A stretch of DNA of 64,000 nucleotides, taken from NCBI GenBank assembly GCA_963676395.1, contig OY781066.1, positions 192,001 through 256,000 of the forward strand, in the 5' to 3' direction. The translations under genes were made by a program, and so were the position numbers. Of this stretch, positions 3,682 to 10,169 are shown piece by piece; the stretch's first letter is position 1, and each line of letters starts with the position of its first letter. Under the pieces are notes generated by a model. It saw only the letters and a list, made by a program, of their open reading frames with translations, made no database searches and was not told where the DNA came from. The stretch is from a bacterium. GTDB taxonomy: Bacteria > Fidelibacterota > Fidelibacteria > Fidelibacterales > Fidelibacteraceae.

Positions 3682-3700
3682 GAATGAATATATGAAAAAC

Positions 3701-3741
3701 AGAAGCCAGAAGCCAGAAGTTAGAGGTCAGAACTAGAAATT
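3701..3741. repeat. Degenerate heptamer tandem repeat (AGAAGCC/AGAAGTT/AGAGGTC)
   Basis: About six units read directly between ispG and the SGNH gene. Confidence 0.6.
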
Positions 3742-3841
3742 CGGGAATCGGTTTGAAGAGCAAGAAAATGAATTGTAAAAAATTATTCACTATCGTATCT
3801 TAGAAAGCAAACAGTCCATTAAACATGAATAGGTACGAATT

Positions 3842-4570
3842 ATGACAGCACGTAAAATTTTCCTCTTTTATTTCTTTCTCATTGTGATTGTGTTAACGGG
3901 ATGCGCAACAAACCCACCAACGCTTGATAACCTCTATCCCTCCGAAGATCAGGTTATTCAGTATCACTCCAAATGGACCAAGATCACCTATCCCAAACGG
4001 ATCAAAGCATTCAAAGAAGATCCATTGCAACGCGGTGATATTGTTTTCCTGGGGAATAGTATTACACAAAACGGCGGTGACTGGAGTGCTAAGTTCGAAC
4101 GTAGCGATGTGAAAAACCGCGGGATCAGCGGCGATGTGACGGATGGCGTTCTGGCTCGGCTCGGTGAGATCTGTCACGCCAAACCCAAAGCCGTTTTCCT
4201 GATGATCGGGATCAACGATATTTACAACTGGTACAATGAATGGGGCATCCCCTCACCCGAATATGTAGGTCAAAACATTCCCAAGATCGCTGAAGCGATC
4301 CATAAAGGAAGTCCCCGAACAAAAATATATGTTCAAACGGTCCTCCCCACCGATTTCGAGCCGGTGAAAGAGGCAATCTTAACGGTCAATAAAATGATCA
4401 AGTCGCACGAATCGAAAGGCCATTATCAAGTCATCGACCTTTACGCGGCCTTTGCAGATACAAGCGGACTGATCAAGCCCGAGCTGACAAACGATGGAAC
4501 GCATTTGACTGCTGAAGGTTATCATGTGTGGACGACTCTAATAGACTCGCTAATAAACAATCAACCATAA
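3842..4570 (+). CDS. SGNH/GDSL-family hydrolase lipoprotein
   Basis: Lipobox LTGC; blocks FLGNSIT, NRGISGD, MIGIND, DGTH. Confidence 0.88.
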   Translation: MTARKIFLFYFFLIVIVLTGCATNPPTLDNLYPSEDQVIQYHSKWTKITYPKRIKAFKEDPLQRGDIVFLGNSITQNGGDWSAKFERSDVKNRGISGDVTDGVLARLGEICHAKPKAVFLMIGINDIYNWYNEWGIPSPEYVGQNIPKIAEAIHKGSPRTKIYVQTVLPTDFEPVKEAILTVNKMIKSHESKGHYQVIDLYAAFADTSGLIKPELTNDGTHLTAEGYHVWTTLIDSLINNQP

Positions 4571-4583
4571 TCAATACGAGATA

Positions 4584-5600
4584 ATGAAATTTTTATTAAA
4601 ATCACTTCCATTGCTCTTACTTTTTAGCATTCTTGCTATTGCCCAAACTTATCCAAATAATGAGGATGGTCAATATCAAGACATGCTCACGCCAGAGTAT
4701 TACAATTCAGCGCAAGCGAGTGATTTTCGACTTGAGCTTAATAAATTCGTACATTTTGCTCGGCAAATTCCCTTTCAGCATCCTTTTAAAGATTCATTGG
4801 GCTCAATACCCTCTTATAACATTAATCGAGGTTTTGGTGATATTATTGGTACAGCTGCTTTCGGTACCCACCACCCGGCATATGATTACTATCCTGCAGA
4901 AAATGCCACTAATACCTATTTATATGCGGCACATGATGGCTTAATTAGTACGGACAATGATGCAGATAGATACAGACATTATATAGCCATCACCAAAGAC
5001 GTCAGTGATTCTCTTGGACATATTATTGGCAAGATAATGACCCTTTATGGGCATGTAGATTTAGATTTTGATTTAGCAGACGGCTTAGATCTTGAGGGGC
5101 AATATGTTCAAAAGGGAGATATAATTTCCAAACACTTATATTCAGGTACAATGGGAGGTCCGCATCTGCATTTTGAGATACGTTACTATCGTCCAAACGA
5201 TACCGGCTCAGAAGACTTTTACGGTGGCCAGGTAGGCGATAAAACTGCTCCCTCATCAGGAATTTGGACGAAAGGTTATTGGAATCCCAGCGAAGGTTAC
5301 GGCTTTGCACATCCACTCAATCATTTAAACTATATAAACTCAGCAATAGCTCAAACACAATCTCATCCCTCTATCTCTATCTTCCCTAACCCAAGTAATG
5401 ATCTTCTCAACATTAAATTAGATCAAGCGATGGGCAATAAACTCGTCAGCATTTACAATTTAGCCGGACGAAAAGTTTACCAAAATAATTACAGCCAGAA
5501 CAGCGAGATACAGATTAATATCAAAAATTTAGCAAGGGGTATTTATCTTGTAAATATCTATAATAATGGACAAAAGTTTACGCATAAATTTTTTAAATAG
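4584..5600 (+). CDS. Secreted M23-family metallopeptidase with Por/T9SS-like C-terminal domain
   Basis: Signal peptide; HPAYD (HxxxD), YGH, GPHLHFEIR; C-terminal IFPNP...GIYLVNI. Confidence 0.8.
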   Translation: MKFLLKSLPLLLLFSILAIAQTYPNNEDGQYQDMLTPEYYNSAQASDFRLELNKFVHFARQIPFQHPFKDSLGSIPSYNINRGFGDIIGTAAFGTHHPAYDYYPAENATNTYLYAAHDGLISTDNDADRYRHYIAITKDVSDSLGHIIGKIMTLYGHVDLDFDLADGLDLEGQYVQKGDIISKHLYSGTMGGPHLHFEIRYYRPNDTGSEDFYGGQVGDKTAPSSGIWTKGYWNPSEGYGFAHPLNHLNYINSAIAQTQSHPSISIFPNPSNDLLNIKLDQAMGNKLVSIYNLAGRKVYQNNYSQNSEIQINIKNLARGIYLVNIYNNGQKFTHKFFK

Positions 5601-5622
5601 ATATTGCATCTTGTGACACTAA

Positions 5623-5650
5623 ACGAGTTACGAGTTATGCATTACGGTTA
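5623..5650. repeat. Short heptamer tandem repeat (ACGAGTT-like x4)
   Basis: acgagtt acgagtt atgcatt acggtta. Confidence 0.45.
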
Positions 5651-5710
5651 AGATCATGGCGACGCATTTTTAAGTTAATTGAAGAAATATATTATGATGG
5701 AATATATTTT

Positions 5711-6601
5711 ATGAAAAAACCAATATTATTATTAGAAAGCAATTTAATAAAACCATTAGAATTGGCTTTAAAAAGAATTAATGATATTAAAAATAATAAA
5801 ATTGCCAATCATGATGAAATTATATACGAAGGATTGTTTATATTAGCTGTTACCTCATTTGAAAATTCTATTCTTGATACTCTCAAAATTCTTTTTACTC
5901 ATATTCCACATAAATTAGATATTAAATCCAATAATATACCCAAGGAAATTTTATTAGATGAAAAAGCGCTAGAATATTCAATTGAAGATAAAATTAATTC
6001 ATTAGGATATAAAAATATTGATGAAATACTAGATTATTTTTATAATAAAACAGGATTAAGTAATGATCTTATCAATTCAAATACTATCAATGATATTAAA
6101 GAAATTAAGGCTACACGAAATATTCTAATTCATAATAATCTTTTTATAAATAATGTTTATAAAAATACCGCAGGTCCTCATCAAAGAAAGAGTAATAATA
6201 ACAAATTATTAATTAACAGGGAATATCTTATTCATACAATAAATACAATTGAGGATACTGTAAAAATATTTATAAAGAATCTATCTAATAAGTATAAATG
6301 TTATACGAAAATCCAAGCAACTAGAAACTTATTTAATTACTTGTTTAACACCCCATTATTGTGTTTTGATGATATTTTTATTTTCAATTACGAACAAGAT
6401 TATATAACTGGTGTAAATTCTAAAATAATAAATTCACTTAATACACTTTCATCTTCAGAAAAACTATTATTTAATTTATGGATAGCACATTTCAAGAATG
6501 ATCCTTTTGAATTCAAGGGTAGTTGGTTATATCACTTAAGTGAAAGCACAAAAAATAAATTAGATTTTTTAATTTCAAACATTGATTTGCTAAAATCTTA
6601 G
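5711..6601 (+). CDS. Putative HEPN-domain protein (candidate RNase toxin/defence effector)
   Basis: N-terminal helix 'LAVTSFE' plus R-x4-H motif 'RNILIH'; strongly AT-rich relative to neighbours. Confidence 0.6.
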   Translation: MKKPILLLESNLIKPLELALKRINDIKNNKIANHDEIIYEGLFILAVTSFENSILDTLKILFTHIPHKLDIKSNNIPKEILLDEKALEYSIEDKINSLGYKNIDEILDYFYNKTGLSNDLINSNTINDIKEIKATRNILIHNNLFINNVYKNTAGPHQRKSNNNKLLINREYLIHTINTIEDTVKIFIKNLSNKYKCYTKIQATRNLFNYLFNTPLLCFDDIFIFNYEQDYITGVNSKIINSLNTLSSSEKLLFNLWIAHFKNDPFEFKGSWLYHLSESTKNKLDFLISNIDLLKS

Positions 6602-6654
6602 AACAAAACATATTGATTAGATTATTTAATAACACTTTTATTAGTGGAGGCAAT

Positions 6655-7482
6655 ATGAGCAACAACCTCATCAAACGCATCATTCGCGGGCAATCCGTAT
6701 CGGACGGTGCCGGCGTAAAGTTGAACCGGCTGATCGCATCAGCCAAGGTTGACAATATCGATCCCTTTTTCCTGCTGGACGAGTTCCGCAGCGATGATCC
6801 TAATGATTATATCGCAGGTTTCCCCATGCATCCGCATCGCGGGATCGAGACGATCACGTATATGATCGAGGGCAGTTTTACGCACCGGGACAGCCGTGGC
6901 GGCGGCGGGGTTTTAAAATCCGGGGAGGTCCAATGGATGACCGCTGGCAAGGGCATCCTTCACGAAGAAATGCCGGCCATGGAAAGCGGCCACTTGTGGG
7001 GCTACCAGCTATGGCTGAACCTGCCAAAAAAGCTCAAATGGGTAGAACCCGCCTACCAGCATCTCGGCAAAGAGGATATTCCCGTATTTGAAAAAGACGG
7101 TCAAAGAGTCGTGATCATTTCAGGTGAATACGAAGGATTGAAAGGACCGGCCAGCAATCATGTGCCCTCAGAGTATTATGATGTGTATATTGACGAGGGA
7201 AAATCATTCCAATTGCAATTGAAAAAAGGATTTACGTCCCTGATCTATGTCCACAGCGGCAAGATCGAGATCGACGATCAAACCATCGAGGCCAAAAATA
7301 TGGTGGAATTGAATGATGATCAACCTCTTAACGTCAAAGCCCTTGATGATAAAGCCGGATTTCTTTTCCTCTCGGCCATTCCCAATAACGAGCCCTATTA
7401 CCGCGGCGGTCCCTTTGTGATGAACACTCGCGAGGAGATCATGCAGGCCTTTGATGATTATCAGAATGGGAAGTTGTTTTAG
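6655..7482 (+). CDS. Pirin-family protein
   Basis: DPFFLLDEF, GFPMHPHRGIETITY, QWMTAGKGILHEEMP, GPFVMNT; GGAGG RBS before ATG 6655. Confidence 0.95.
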   Translation: MSNNLIKRIIRGQSVSDGAGVKLNRLIASAKVDNIDPFFLLDEFRSDDPNDYIAGFPMHPHRGIETITYMIEGSFTHRDSRGGGGVLKSGEVQWMTAGKGILHEEMPAMESGHLWGYQLWLNLPKKLKWVEPAYQHLGKEDIPVFEKDGQRVVIISGEYEGLKGPASNHVPSEYYDVYIDEGKSFQLQLKKGFTSLIYVHSGKIEIDDQTIEAKNMVELNDDQPLNVKALDDKAGFLFLSAIPNNEPYYRGGPFVMNTREEIMQAFDDYQNGKLF

Positions 7483-8161
7483 ATGCCGCTCCTACGGAGC
7501 TTGATTTTAATTTTATTCTATTTCTCTACAAAGTTATCGTCCCTATGGGACTTAAGGATGTCGCTCCTATGGAGCTATTGTTGTTGATTCGTTGTTCCCT
7601 ACAAAGATATCGTCCCTATGGGACTGTAAGTTTCACTCCTATGGAGTGATTTAATTATTGGGAATACCATTTTACAGATATTCCCCTAGGGGACTTAAAA
7701 GATGTCGCTTCTACGGAGCCTGTTTGTTCATTCGTTCTTTCCTACAAAGATGTCGTCCCTACTGGACTAACGAGAGATCACCTCTAGGGAGCTTTGTTAA
7801 TTGTGTCATTTCCATTTTCCTATTCCCTCCCTCTTGGACTGTTTGTACCGCTCCTGGGGAGTCAATCCCTTAATTACAGATTGTAAATTAAATAACAATA
7901 TTAATTCATTGTAAATATTTATTAATAAGCCCCGTAGGGGCGGAATATCTGTAGATATTATTTCTTAAAATACCACCAGCGCCGTAGGTGCTGTACTAAT
8001 TATTTCTATTTTTCGTTTCCTATAAAGATGTCGCTCCTGCGGAGCTTATCGTTTTACATTATAATTGTTATTAAACATGATAATAAAGTCCCGTAGGGAC
8101 GGAATCTTTGTAGAATACAATTATAAGTAAAATTTCAGCTCCGTAGGAGCGGAATCTTTGT
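7482..8161. repeat. REP-like hairpin array left of tnpA: alternating A (GCTCCTAYGGAGC) and B (GTCCCTAYGGGAC) units, plus inverted copies near the gene
   Basis: A at 7488, 7563, 7635, 7707, 7780, 7850; B at 7539, 7612, 7681, 7755, 7827; inverted copies at 7929, 7979, 8088, 8138; forward A at 8033. Confidence 0.9.
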
Positions 8162-8623
8162 TTATTCAAACCATTCAAATAAGTATTCATCATTATATTT
8201 AATATCAAATTTGTTCAAAATCTCTAAATATTCTTCTTTAAAAGACTTCTTTTTATGATGTTCTGTTTGATTCAATATGTAATTTATAACTGAATCAATT
8301 TGTGACCTGAAATATGAAAATACCCCAAATCCATTCTGCCATTTAAATTTACCCTGAAACCAATTACTCTGATTTATCCATTTTGAAGAACTGGCTTTTA
8401 TTACACGTGCTATTTCAGATGCAGAAATATTTGGATCCAATCCAATTAACATGTGTGCATGATCGGGATTACAATAAATTGCCAGTAATTTGGAGTTCAT
8501 ATTTTTTACTATCCCCGTTATATATTTTTCTAATTCATCTCTATATTTTTCTTTTATTAGATTTTCCCACTGTTTAACGGAAAATATAATCTGAATATAA
8601 ATCTGTGAATAGGTATTTGCCAT
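8162..8623 (-). CDS. tnpA: IS200/IS605-family Y1 HUH transposase (TnpA; REP-associated/RAYT-like)
   Basis: MANTYSQIYIQIIFSVK start, HUH motif DHAH, WQNGFGVFS, catalytic Y in YILNQ; AGAAAGGAG RBS before ATG 8623. Confidence 0.92.
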   Translation of the reverse strand: MANTYSQIYIQIIFSVKQWENLIKEKYRDELEKYITGIVKNMNSKLLAIYCNPDHAHMLIGLDPNISASEIARVIKASSSKWINQSNWFQGKFKWQNGFGVFSYFRSQIDSVINYILNQTEHHKKKSFKEEYLEILNKFDIKYNDEYLFEWFE

Positions 8624-8639
8624 TTTGTTCTCCTTTCTA

Positions 8640-8985
8640 GATGTCGCTCCTATGGAGCTATTGTTATTGATTCGTTTTTTCATACAAAGATATCGTCCCC
8701 ACGGGACTATTAGTATCGCTCTATTATTATTGATTCGTCCTTATTGCAAATATTCCGTCCCTATGGGACTGTAGGTTTTACTCCTACGGAGTAATTAAAT
8801 TATTGGGGATACCATTTTACAGACATTCCGTCCATACGGGACTATTTGTGTCGCTCCTACGGAGCTACTATTGCTGATTCGTTTTTCCTGCAAAAATGTC
8901 GTCCCTACGGCACTTTCTGTATCGCTCCGACTTAACCAGTTTATTGATTTGTTTTCCCTACAAAGATATCGCTCCTACGGAGCTT
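8640..8985. repeat. REP-like hairpin array right of tnpA (its 5' side)
   Basis: A at 8646, 8780, 8853, 8971 (collapsed at ~8718, truncated at ~8924); B at 8695, 8757, 8830, 8901. Confidence 0.9.
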
Positions 8986-9071
8986 TCATTGAATATTCGT
9001 TACATGAATAGATTCTTCAGAATGACACAGATTGGTGAGTAAGCGCCCCCTCTCTGCTCATAATTCTTAAC

Positions 9072-10169
9072 TCATATATTCCTAACGTAATAATCCCCCT
9101 TCCCCCTCTGTACATATCCCTTGATCTCAAGATCAAGAAGCACTTTTATAATCTCTGCTCTCTCTAAAGTACATTTTCCATAGATCATATCAATGTGTAC
9201 ACCTTCTTTATTTAAACATTTAAGAACCGCTTCCTCTTCAACTCCCAATTTTTTTTTCTTTGCCATCTCAATAAAAAGGTCTTTTTGTCCATTTAATTGA
9301 TCTTTAATAAATGGATATTCATCCAGAATATGTTCTGCTGTTGTTGCAAGTTTTGCCCCCAAACGTATCAAACGATGACAACCATTATGCTTACCTTTGA
9401 TAATATCACCCGGAACCGCATAAACATCTCGATTTTGATCGTTTGCATTGAAAGCGGTTACCAATGCGCCACTTTTGTCACCGGCTTGAACAACCAGGAT
9501 CCCCCTACTCAATCCACTAATTATGCGATTTCTACGAACAAAATGAGCCGGCACCTGATATCGACCAAATAAAGTCTCTGTACACACAACACCTTTAGCA
9601 CAAATATCATTATATAGCTGCTTATTTTCTGCAGGATAAATAATATCAAATGAGGTACCCATAACGGCTATAGTCCGTGCATGGTGATCCAATGCCGCCT
9701 TATGCGATATTGCATCAATACCTTTTGCCATTCCACTAACAATGCAAAGATCACTTTTAGCAATACCACTGGCAATATCGTAACACATCTGTTTGCCATA
9801 ATCATCAGGATAGCGCATACCGACTATTCCAAAAGCAGGATCATCTTGATCAGAAAATTCCCCTTTATATAACAATACGATTGGAGGATTATATATCTGA
9901 GCCAATATTTCAGGATAGTTCTCTTCCCCATAGGTCAAAATTTTAACCTTTTTCTTCTCTGAACATAATAATTGCATATCAACCATTTTGCGATATTCCT
10001 TATTAACGATAGCATTTGCCTGATATTCTGAGATCTCACTGACTTGCAATAAGGATTGCTTATCCTGATCAAGCACAGCCTCAGGAGAACCAAAATGATT
10101 TATCAAGGAAAAGTATGTCCGTGGACCTATATCATCAACGCAGGCTATGGATAGTGTAGAAATATTCAT
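9072..10169 (-). CDS. dprA: DNA-processing protein DprA/Smf
   Basis: YPEILAQIYNPPIVL, IVSGMAKGIDAISH, FVRRNRIISGLS, SGALVTA, VYAVPG, C-terminal winged helix. Confidence 0.95.
   Translation of the reverse strand: MNISTLSIACVDDIGPRTYFSLINHFGSPEAVLDQDKQSLLQVSEISEYQANAIVNKEYRKMVDMQLLCSEKKKVKILTYGEENYPEILAQIYNPPIVLLYKGEFSDQDDPAFGIVGMRYPDDYGKQMCYDIASGIAKSDLCIVSGMAKGIDAISHKAALDHHARTIAVMGTSFDIIYPAENKQLYNDICAKGVVCTETLFGRYQVPAHFVRRNRIISGLSRGILVVQAGDKSGALVTAFNANDQNRDVYAVPGDIIKGKHNGCHRLIRLGAKLATTAEHILDEYPFIKDQLNGQKDLFIEMAKKKKLGVEEEAVLKCLNKEGVHIDMIYGKCTLERAEIIKVLLDLEIKGYVQRGKGDYYVRNI

What the first reader, a model, noticed from the sequence alone, without database searches (positions are those of the whole stretch)
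7482..8985. Y1 HUH transposase embedded in periodic dual-hairpin arrays (candidate undescribed array-nuclease system)
Seen: both flanks of an intact-looking tnpA (HAH, YILNQ) are filled by ~25 13-bp hairpins of two classes, A (GCTCCTAYGGAGC) and B (GTCCCTAYGGGAC). They largely alternate A - long linker (~33-38 nt) - B - short variable linker (~10-12 nt). A-to-A spacings on the left are 75, 72, 72, 73 and 70 bp. On the minus strand the intact hairpins read ..CCGTAGG.. and B is followed by a second GTAG (..ATCTTTGTAG). Known: IS200/IS605 TnpA and RAYTs bind ssDNA hairpins and use short GTAG-type guide sequences, but a simple IS200 has one hairpin per end. Inference: this is a domesticated REPtron-like system in which the nuclease builds or acts on a head-to-tail two-repeat array. 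The repeat/spacer layout also raises the possibility of a processed non-coding transcript.
Basis: partly seen in the sequence, partly recalled or inferred. Interest (0 to 1): 0.82.

Follow-up and report, generated by a model that had tools for sequence, protein, structure and literature searches.

The report
Tamed transposase amid its hairpin repeats
A single-copy gene for a small enzyme predicted to cut single-stranded DNA sits inside a stack of about 26 short DNA hairpins that are copies of one 70-base repeat, which this enzyme likely spreads; such gene-plus-repeat pairs are known, but this enzyme subgroup was reported to have no repeats.

Summary
In detail: 26 hairpin positions surround an intact 153-aa Y1 HUH gene (8162-8623, minus strand), with A-to-A spacings 75/72/72/73/70. 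The protein has the signature of TnpA-Y1 subclass 1.2 (IS200-side, not RAYT), which Quentin 2018 lists as having no REPs. Yet 94 of 109 homolog loci carry such hairpins. The unit is a ~70-nt module: hairpin, 13-nt tail ending in TAG, ~24-nt unstructured linker, hairpin. In same-genus genomes it is mostly a dispersed single intergenic repeat (up to 35 matches). The 'spacers' are paralogous copies, so this is not CRISPR-like. The A/B alternation is local: 72 of 97 homolog pairs have one stem type. The site beside dprA is shared by several species, a ~95%-identical relative has a shorter array, and the gene is under purifying selection. Best reading: a REPtron-like domesticated nuclease with a locally amplified REP/BIME-type repeat. 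Cutting, cut site and active strand are inferred, not shown. This scan has already reported this family on other genomes many times, with the same link to Rfam Acido-Lenti-1, which I confirmed on one homolog locus. Added here: the form without a middle hairpin, the fixed TAG, and genus and strain dynamics.

The parts
8162..8623 (-). tnpA, Y1 HUH nuclease of 153 aa with the TnpA-Y1 subclass 1.2 signature (H55-A56-H57, W95-Q96, Y115-x3-Q119-x2-H122-H123, C-terminal tail of about 30 aa)
   Evidence: PF01797, 79 bits; NF033573 IS200 63.3 bits, cut-off 55; NF047646 RAYT 27.2 bits, cut-off 80; subclass motifs
7482..7863 (-). left head-to-tail array: 6 A and 5 B hairpins, period 70-75 nt, decaying towards 7863; read on the minus strand each module is B hairpin, 13-nt tail ending GTAG, linker, A hairpin
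7928..7995 (+). inverted module (GCCCC hairpin 7929, tail ending GTAG, linker, imperfect hairpin 7979); absent from the relative in run X2
8020..8046 (-). lone A hairpin (8033) with a full tail ending ATAG
8087..8161 (+). inverted B-A module pointing at the 3' end of tnpA; the stop codon lies 11 nt from the A stem
8634..8984 (-). right head-to-tail array, 10 hairpin positions (two are remnants); its innermost A hairpin (8646) and tail lie directly upstream of the ribosome-binding site and ATG; colinear with the left array at 76% over 292 columns
6655..7482 (+). flanking pirin gene (context, convergent with tnpA); not found with this query in 18 same-genus genomes
9072..10169 (-). flanking dprA (context); its 3' flank holds the module in 5 of 15 other same-genus genomes with a dprA match

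Best explanation
This is a single-copy IS200-side Y1 HUH nuclease gene (subclass 1.2 signature) bracketed by inward-pointing copies of a ~70-nt two-hairpin DNA repeat that has piled up head-to-tail on both sides, and the enzyme likely binds these hairpins in single-stranded DNA and cuts and rejoins next to them, as RAYT enzymes do with REPs. Shown: the module anatomy (5-bp stem with 3-nt loop, 13-nt tail ending in TAG, 21-28-nt unstructured linker, second hairpin); its recurrence beside homologs; its gene-less dispersed copies in relatives; array-length change between close relatives; purifying selection on the gene. Inferred: HUH/Tyr115 cleavage with a phosphotyrosine intermediate on transiently single-stranded DNA; cut and join points at the AG/CT dinucleotides at the hairpin foot and the tail end; seeding of new modules beside existing ones by the enzyme, followed by block duplication and loss through ordinary recombination or slippage. 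Which strand is recognised is open: loops of the C(GNA)G type favour the purine-loop strand, while all conserved bases outside the stems lie 5' of the hairpin only on the other strand.
For: Family link: 408 hairpins in 114,020 nt within 500 nt of 126 genes (this one included) against 28 in 183,959 nt more than 1 kb away; 94 of 109 loci with 200 nt on both sides have at least one, 56 of 109 on both sides. Fixed grammar: spacing peak 48-53 nt; TAG at tail positions 11-13 in 66 of 97 perfect pairs from 52 loci, at most 4 at any other of 28 offsets. Modules point at the gene (upstream 131 vs 65, downstream 134 vs 86). Stem class clusters on the protein tree: 26 changes vs 39.9 shuffled, 0 of 200 (quick tree, 75 of 122 proteins). 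REP-like dispersal: B-plus-tail pattern in 11 of 33 family genomes, up to 35 matches, reversed control 0; 71 of 88 distinct B hits are followed by A after 21-26 nt, 58 at 23-24 nt. Domestication: one intact copy in the genome, two broken paralogs at 34-35% identity; the dprA flank holds a frameshifted ortholog (62%) in G002 and a 5' remnant in G017; 13 of 18 listed substitutions against the X2 relative are synonymous, neutral expectation 0.18; 1 of 72,556 plasmid records and 0 of 50,697 phage records match. Junctions: 15 of 18 hairpin pairs 23-27 nt apart join at TA|G (4 loci); the 5' boundary of dispersed modules is sharp at the A of AGTCCC. Array dynamics: about 7 hairpins between pirin and tnpA in the X2 contig against 16 here.
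Against: No biochemical or RNA data. No empty-versus-filled site at nucleotide resolution was found, so mobility of the module is inferred from dispersal only. In this genome the module has barely spread (7 of 8 pattern matches at the locus), while the genome with most copies (G002) has only a frameshifted cognate gene in its assembly, and G011 and G015 (78-79% complete) gave no close ortholog. This copy has two non-consensus residues (A56 in the HuH motif, F105 at a nearly invariant Ser) where the X2 relative has T and S, so it may be weakened. The short junctions here are mostly 10 nt, not the 12 nt expected of a precise TA|G join. GCCCC stems do not cluster on the tree (301 of 500 shuffles as low). 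15 of 109 homolog loci have no perfect hairpin within 500 nt. The X2 evidence is one contig of depth 2 across repeats.
Confidence: 0.7

Rival explanations
1. The enzyme only explains the ancestry of the hairpins; the arrays here grew passively by slippage and recombination between existing modules, and neither array nor repeat has a present function.
For: Linkers are paralogous and the left and right arrays are colinear at 76% over about four units, with the order alpha-beta-alpha on both sides; arrays decay at their ends; the X2 relative lacks a 162-nt stretch that lies between two direct repeats; two non-consensus residues in this copy. This is compatible with the best explanation for the later growth of the array.
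Against: Purifying selection on the gene; linker length and the TAG position are kept while linker sequence drifts, which points to a constraint; inverted modules and dispersed single copies are not explained by slippage.
Confidence: 0.15
2. It is an ordinary IS200/IS605-type insertion sequence with redundant, amplified end hairpins, and the gene-less modules are its MITE-like derivatives.
For: The protein passes the NCBIfam IS200 cut-off and fails the RAYT one; nearest solved structures are ISDra2 and IS608 TnpA; hairpin, tail, TAG, linker, hairpin resembles the geometry of a right-end/left-end junction (resemblance recalled, not tested); presence at dprA is patchy.
Against: No near-identical second copy in the genome; same site in species whose DprA proteins are 67-71% identical; the modules nearest the gene are inverted, which does not fit two ends on one strand; no tnpB-sized ORF beside the gene; almost absent from plasmid and phage collections, though these are biased to other phyla.
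Confidence: 0.1
3. The array is transcribed and processed into ~70-nt RNAs (CRISPR-like repeat/spacer layout) that guide or regulate the nuclease.
For: Regular 70-75-nt period; stems also fold as RNA (-7.2 kcal/mol); Rfam lists a related module as a small RNA (RF01687).
Against: Six of ten long linkers are copies of one sequence and two of another (z up to 6.8), not unique spacers; the unit is mostly single in relatives; array length differs between close relatives; no Rfam match in 7300-9200 beyond one chance-level hit at E 0.7; promoter-like sites at chance level (7 vs 7.2).
Confidence: 0.05

Closest known systems
TnpA-Y1 subclass 1.2 (Quentin et al. 2018, PMC6006769; I read parts 1-6 of 10 of the text, parts 1, 6, 7 of 7 of Table S1, and searched both supplements)
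   Same: Motifs DH-x-H, WQ, Y-x3-Q-x2-HH, length about 150 aa, short C-terminal tail, low copy number with divergent paralogs.
   Different: [quoted passage not shown] Six core motifs were not found in its supplements. HuH middle residue is Ala here, I/V in the paper's consensus.
REPtrons with REP/BIME/REPIN repeats and RAYT (TnpA-REP, class 2) (passages of PMC8266576 and PMC3733652)
   Same: Single nuclease gene flanked by inverted short palindromes; gene-less intergenic copies; heterodimers and tandem clusters of REPs are described; Marinomonas REPtrons also have 5-bp stems and copies concentrated near the gene; cleavage at CT is the RAYT rule.
   Different: Protein is class 1 (Y-x3-Q), not class 2 (Y-x3-NP); no GT[AG]G at the 5' foot of the hairpin: the TAG lies 11-13 nt 3' of the first hairpin and about 24 nt 5' of the second; the pair is a direct, not an inverted, doublet.
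IS200/IS605 insertion sequences (IS608, ISDra2)
   Same: Fold and catalytic layout (Foldseek E 2.7e-7 and 3.7e-7); subterminal-type hairpins.
   Different: Many hairpins per side, inverted about the gene; one intact copy; conserved site across species; no tnpB.
IS200 'Group 3' of Bertels et al. 2017 (PMC5581495; passages and a supplement search)
   Same: Described as an IS200 group with no duplicates, none on plasmids, and abundant flanking 16-mers, that is RAYT-like behaviour.
   Different: Its members and repeats could not be seen, so identity with subclass 1.2 is untested; if it is the same group, the repeat association was hinted at in 2017 without describing the repeat.
Rfam Acido-Lenti-1 (RF01687; Weinberg et al. 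2010, PMC2864571; supplement rows only)
   Same: Three matches above the gathering score flank homolog locus L006 (1 of 20 loci scanned); the model's 3' hairpin with CTA about 10 nt before it equals the B hairpin and its tail read on the pyrimidine-loop strand.
   Different: The model's larger 5' hairpin is missing here: linkers do not fold, and this locus has no match. Catalogued as RNA, without a transposase link in what I saw.

Membership tests
TnpA-Y1 subclass 1.2 | Y-x3-Q-x2-HH motif | tested here: met
   YILNQTEHH; Y, Q, H, H invariant in 41 aligned sequences
TnpA-Y1 subclass 1.2 | DH[IV]H and WQ motifs | tested here: met
   DHAH (Ala for I/V; T/V/I in relatives) and WQ
TnpA-Y1 subclass 1.2 | About 148 aa with a ~30-aa C-terminal tail | tested here: met
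   153 aa; Pfam core ends about 34 residues before the end
TnpA-Y1 subclass 1.2 | Low copy number, divergent paralogs | tested here: met
   One intact copy, two broken at 34-35%
TnpA-Y1 subclass 1.2 | Placement by the authors' clustering or tree | not tested
   My tree held no reference IS200, RAYT or published 1.2 sequences
TnpA-Y1 subclass 1.2 | Reported absence of REP-like repeats | tested here: not met
   I read this as a gap in the description (their search required a GT[AG]G foot), not as exclusion from the subclass
RAYT / TnpA-REP (class 2) | Y-x3-NP motif and RAYT profile | tested here: not met
   Y-x3-Q; NF047646 27.2 bits against cut-off 80
REP / REPtron | GT[AG]G tetranucleotide at the 5' foot of the palindrome | tested here: not met
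   Only A at -1 (65 of 97) plus the first stem base; TAG is at +11 to +13
REP / REPtron | Gene flanked by inverted palindromic repeats | tested here: met
   Modules at 8087-8161 (+) and 8634 onward (-) point at the gene
REP / REPtron | Gene-less copies dispersed in intergenic space | tested here: met
   Up to 35 matches in G002, between ordinary ORFs; only one further small cluster in this genome
REP / REPtron | Nuclease cleaves and rejoins the cognate repeat | not testable with these tools
   Needs an in vitro assay
IS200/IS605 insertion sequence | Class 1 TnpA profile and fold | tested here: met
IS200/IS605 insertion sequence | One left and one right end hairpin on the same strand; near-identical copies at several sites | tested here: not met
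   26 hairpins, inverted about the gene; single copy; shared site across species
CRISPR-like array | Unique, unrelated spacers | tested here: not met
   Linkers fall into paralog groups
Rfam Acido-Lenti-1 | Score at or above the gathering threshold (37 bits) | tested here: not met
   No match at E up to 1 in 7300-9200; met at homolog locus L006

The most novel reading that the evidence does not exclude
Subclass 1.2 is an independently domesticated, IS200-side REPtron whose substrate is a fixed-geometry double hairpin (hairpin, 13 nt ending TAG, ~24 nt, hairpin) that mimics a transposon end-to-end junction. A TnpA dimer would bind both hairpins, cut at AG/CT and build head-to-tail multimers, and same-direction modules would serve as recombination sites that swap cargo genes at hotspots such as the dprA-ispG interval (pirin here, an AbiEii pair between two modules in G017). 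That would be the missing intermediate between IS200 elements and REPtrons and would re-assign Acido-Lenti-1 from RNA to single-stranded DNA.
Probability: 0.15. Interest if true: 0.75.

Novelty: new variant of a known kind. Interest (0 to 1): 0.45.

Why it matters
It corrects a published description (subclass 1.2 'no REP') and gives a widespread enzyme family (2,404 proteins at E 1e-30 among 2,492 candidates; matches in 100 of 201 genomes of the host phylum) a defined candidate substrate of about 70 nt with a predicted cut dinucleotide. That makes two open questions testable with one purified protein and a few oligonucleotides: how IS200 transposases became domesticated REP nucleases, and whether the orphan Acido-Lenti-1 motif is DNA. 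The locus itself is a rich example, not a new kind of system, and the scan has reported the family before.

Tried and rejected
Rfam scan of the locus: only WsnRNA46 at E 0.7, 20.5 bits against 65.3, taken as chance. Expression: no RNA holder listed; no statement on transcription is possible. Runs X3 and X4 laid nothing; X1 is near-identical and may be the source of this DNA, so it is not independent. Other X2 joints with sides under 30 nt were set aside as other organisms' hairpins. Middle hairpin of the three-hairpin form: absent here (linker energies -2.7 to 0 kcal/mol; -3.3 to 0 in 71 genus modules; 1 of 59 homolog loci at or below -4, and that one is a monomer array); that scan selects 46-56-nt pairs, so it misses three-hairpin loci such as L006, L010, L012. 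Folding energies did not separate the strands or DNA from RNA. Gene-cassette idea: in the 60-odd genus regions mapped, same-direction modules 300-600 nt apart mostly had no ORF of 90 aa or more between them; only G017 C131 shows cargo between two modules, and no module was found between the cargo genes of this window, so it stays in the novel case only. I tried by eye to fit a guide/cut-site pairing rule recalled from IS608 on either strand and found no consistent fit. The 18 terminator-like sites are the hairpins themselves and add nothing. Bertels' IS200 Group 3 members were not visible in the supplement. The careful tree did not finish; the quick tree was used. Output for G012 was cut from view and G006 had 8 nt of flank, so both are counted as uninformative. 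Literature searches for a prior description: (six 13-nt motifs, 0 papers); a bioRxiv 2026 noncoding survey (10.64898/2026.10.21.760802, passages) has no TnpA, HUH or IS200 in its main text, and its supplements could not be seen. Subscription papers and ISfinder are outside these searches.
Full report
Observation. An open frame of 153 aa runs from 8623 to 8162 on the minus strand. Around it lie 26 hairpin positions, two of them remnants. The left array has A hairpins at 7488, 7563, 7635, 7707, 7780 and 7850 (spacings 75, 72, 72, 73, 70) with B hairpins between them. Thirteen perfect GC-rich hairpins (5-bp stem, 3-nt loop) occur in the two flanks against a mean of 0.06 in 1000 Markov simulations, and no other 2-kb bin of the 2.34-Mb genome has more than 2. 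Of 27 genome-wide matches to the A, B or C motif with at most one mismatch, 17 lie here.

The protein. It matches Pfam Y1_Tnp (79 bits), passes the NCBIfam IS200 model (63.3 against 55) and fails the RAYT model (27.2 against 80). The AlphaFold model (mean pLDDT 90) is closest by E-value to ISDra2 and IS608 TnpA (2.7e-7, 3.7e-7) and also matches E. coli TnpA-REP (1.3e-4). Its motifs DHAH, WQ and YILNQTEHH and its short tail are those given for subclass 1.2 by Quentin et al. 2018 (PMC6006769), who list that subclass with no REP. The assignment rests on motifs and profiles; my tree held no published references. The genome has two further, broken members at 34-35% identity.

The repeat unit. Read on the strand with purine-rich loops, the unit is: A, hairpin B, a 13-nt tail ending GTAG, a linker, A, hairpin A, a few conserved bases. 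In same-genus genomes 71 of 88 distinct B hits are followed by A after 21-26 nt (58 at 23-24 nt); the linker sequence varies and does not fold, and similarity stops sharply 5' of the A of AGTCCC (that A is part of the search pattern, but in the unbiased set it is 65 of 97). The B-plus-tail pattern occurs in 11 of 33 genomes of the family, all in this genus, with 35 matches in G002 and none for the reversed control. Most copies are single modules between ordinary ORFs; some form inverted doublets. So the ~70-nt module, not the array, is the basic element.

The family. I collected 126 loci of homologs, this one included (left out: one partial hit and five duplicates). Hairpins of the same build are 24 times denser within 500 nt of the gene than beyond 1 kb (408 in 114,020 nt against 28 in 183,959 nt); 94 of 109 loci with enough flank have at least one. 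Their spacing peaks at 48-53 nt. In 97 perfect same-direction pairs from 52 other loci, TAG stands at tail positions 11-13 in 66, and at no other offset in more than 4. Loops are GNA or its complement in 227 of 416 hairpins; GNA mini-hairpins are unusually stable in DNA (PMC13037366, start of abstract only). Modules tend to point at the gene from both sides. Stem type clusters on the protein tree overall (26 changes against 39.9; 0 of 200 shuffles), clearly for ACCCC, weakly for GCTCC, not for GCCCC (quick tree, 75 of 122 proteins; kin share labels, so this is not proof of co-evolution). Short three-unit B-A arrays do occur beside dprA in G002 and G011.

History of the site. Of 15 other same-genus genomes with a dprA match, 5 have the module just downstream (G002, G011, G015, G017, and G031 at a contig end; DprA 67-75% identical), 8 have none (49-66%; in six, ispG follows directly, judged by eye) and 2 are uninformative. 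G002 has a frameshifted ortholog of the gene there (62%), and G017 a 5' remnant behind an AbiEii/DUF6088 pair that lies between two modules. One contig of run X2 (2,771 nt, depth 2, 26 differences over 574 nt around the gene) has the same pirin-array-tnpA order but about 7 hairpins where the window has 16: it joins 7533 to a two-unit piece, then to 7864-7923, then to 8086. It is a single low-depth contig across repeats. Of 18 listed substitutions in the gene, 13 are synonymous where 18% would be expected (simple binomial P 7e-7, transition bias ignored). Two of the five others show that the window's copy has left the consensus (A56, F105). Homologs are nearly absent from plasmid and phage collections, which are biased to other phyla.

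How the array grew. The long linkers are not unique spacers: L2, L4, R1, R2, R4 and R5 are one group and L3 and R3 another (z up to 6.8), and the left and right arrays align colinearly at 76% over about four units. This points to duplication of single units and of a block. In four other loci, 15 of 18 pairs of hairpins 23-27 nt apart join exactly where the TAG of the tail overlaps the AG at the foot of the next hairpin, which suggests AG/CT as the cut-and-join dinucleotide; RAYT enzymes cut at CT (PMC8266576, passages). The short junctions here all end at that AG but are mostly 2 nt shorter, so the rule is not exact.

Mechanism. Shown: anatomy, family association, dispersal, strain variation, selection. 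Inferred from the known chemistry of Y1 HUH enzymes: hairpin binding on single-stranded DNA, Tyr115 attack, strand transfer. Open: the strand used, the cut position, whether both hairpins are bound at once, and any benefit to the host. I put 0.70 on a REPtron-like domesticated nuclease with a locally amplified repeat, 0.15 on purely passive arrays, 0.10 on a true IS and 0.05 on a processed RNA.

Known and new. The locus works like a REPtron but fails two defining RAYT/REP tests (Y-x3-NP; GT[AG]G at the 5' foot). Heterodimeric and tandem REP clusters, and REPs concentrated near their gene, are in print. Bertels et al. 2017 noted an IS200 group with RAYT-like behaviour and abundant flanking 16-mers, which may be this subclass; I could not check. 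A lead from an earlier scan note led me to Rfam: Acido-Lenti-1 flanks homolog locus L006 three times above threshold (1 of 20 loci) and shares the B hairpin and CTA, but this locus lacks its larger hairpin and has no match. I found no paper that describes these repeats with subclass 1.2. The scan itself has reported the family on other genomes at least ten times; those notes are leads, not support. Verdict: real, a new variant of a known kind, interest 0.45.

Noticed in passing
L162:900-2050 (G000:C1:1669400-1670550, outside the window): A second, broken subclass 1.2 tnpA (34% identity) is preceded by five units at an exact 72-nt period of a different repeat (GACTCC-GYAA-GGAGTC tetraloop hairpin) and bracketed by ACCCC-stem hairpins; the same period with a different hairpin type in the same genome.
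   Followed up: partly
L162:5150-6100 (G000:C1:1673653-1674591): The only other A/B cluster in this genome: two lone A hairpins around a short ORF and one B-A module with a beta-like linker, about 3.4 kb from the broken tnpA.
   Followed up: partly
L163:900-2000 (G000:C1:1827900-1829000): A third, broken subclass 1.2 tnpA flanked on both sides by near-identical direct repeats of about 100 nt with other hairpins.
   Followed up: no
window 3682-9071: The dprA-ispG interval is a variable region: here GDSL hydrolase, M23 peptidase with a type IX secretion tail, a 22%-GC ORF without Pfam match (5711-6601), pirin and the array; other genes in G004, G011, G015, G017; no insert in six more distant genomes.
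   Followed up: partly
L158:200-2553 (G017:C131): An AbiEii/DUF6088 gene pair lies between two same-direction modules downstream of dprA, followed by the first 15 codons of a tnpA remnant; a near-identical module-plus-remnant stands behind another gene in G013 (L223).
   Followed up: partly
window 8138-8164 and homolog loci: The tnpA stop codon often lies inside the tail of the first downstream hairpin: 3-7 nt from the stem in 18 of 48 loci with such a hairpin within 40 nt, 6 nt in 10; 11 nt here.
   Followed up: partly
L170, L181, L190, L195-L198, L201-L218 (G002, G015): Dispersed modules are often flanked by other short repeated sequences shared between copies, so they sit in mosaic repeat clusters of several families.
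   Followed up: no
L097, L099, L044: Arrays of a single hairpin plus tail with a 25-26-nt period beside homologous genes, the minimal form of the repeat.
   Followed up: partly
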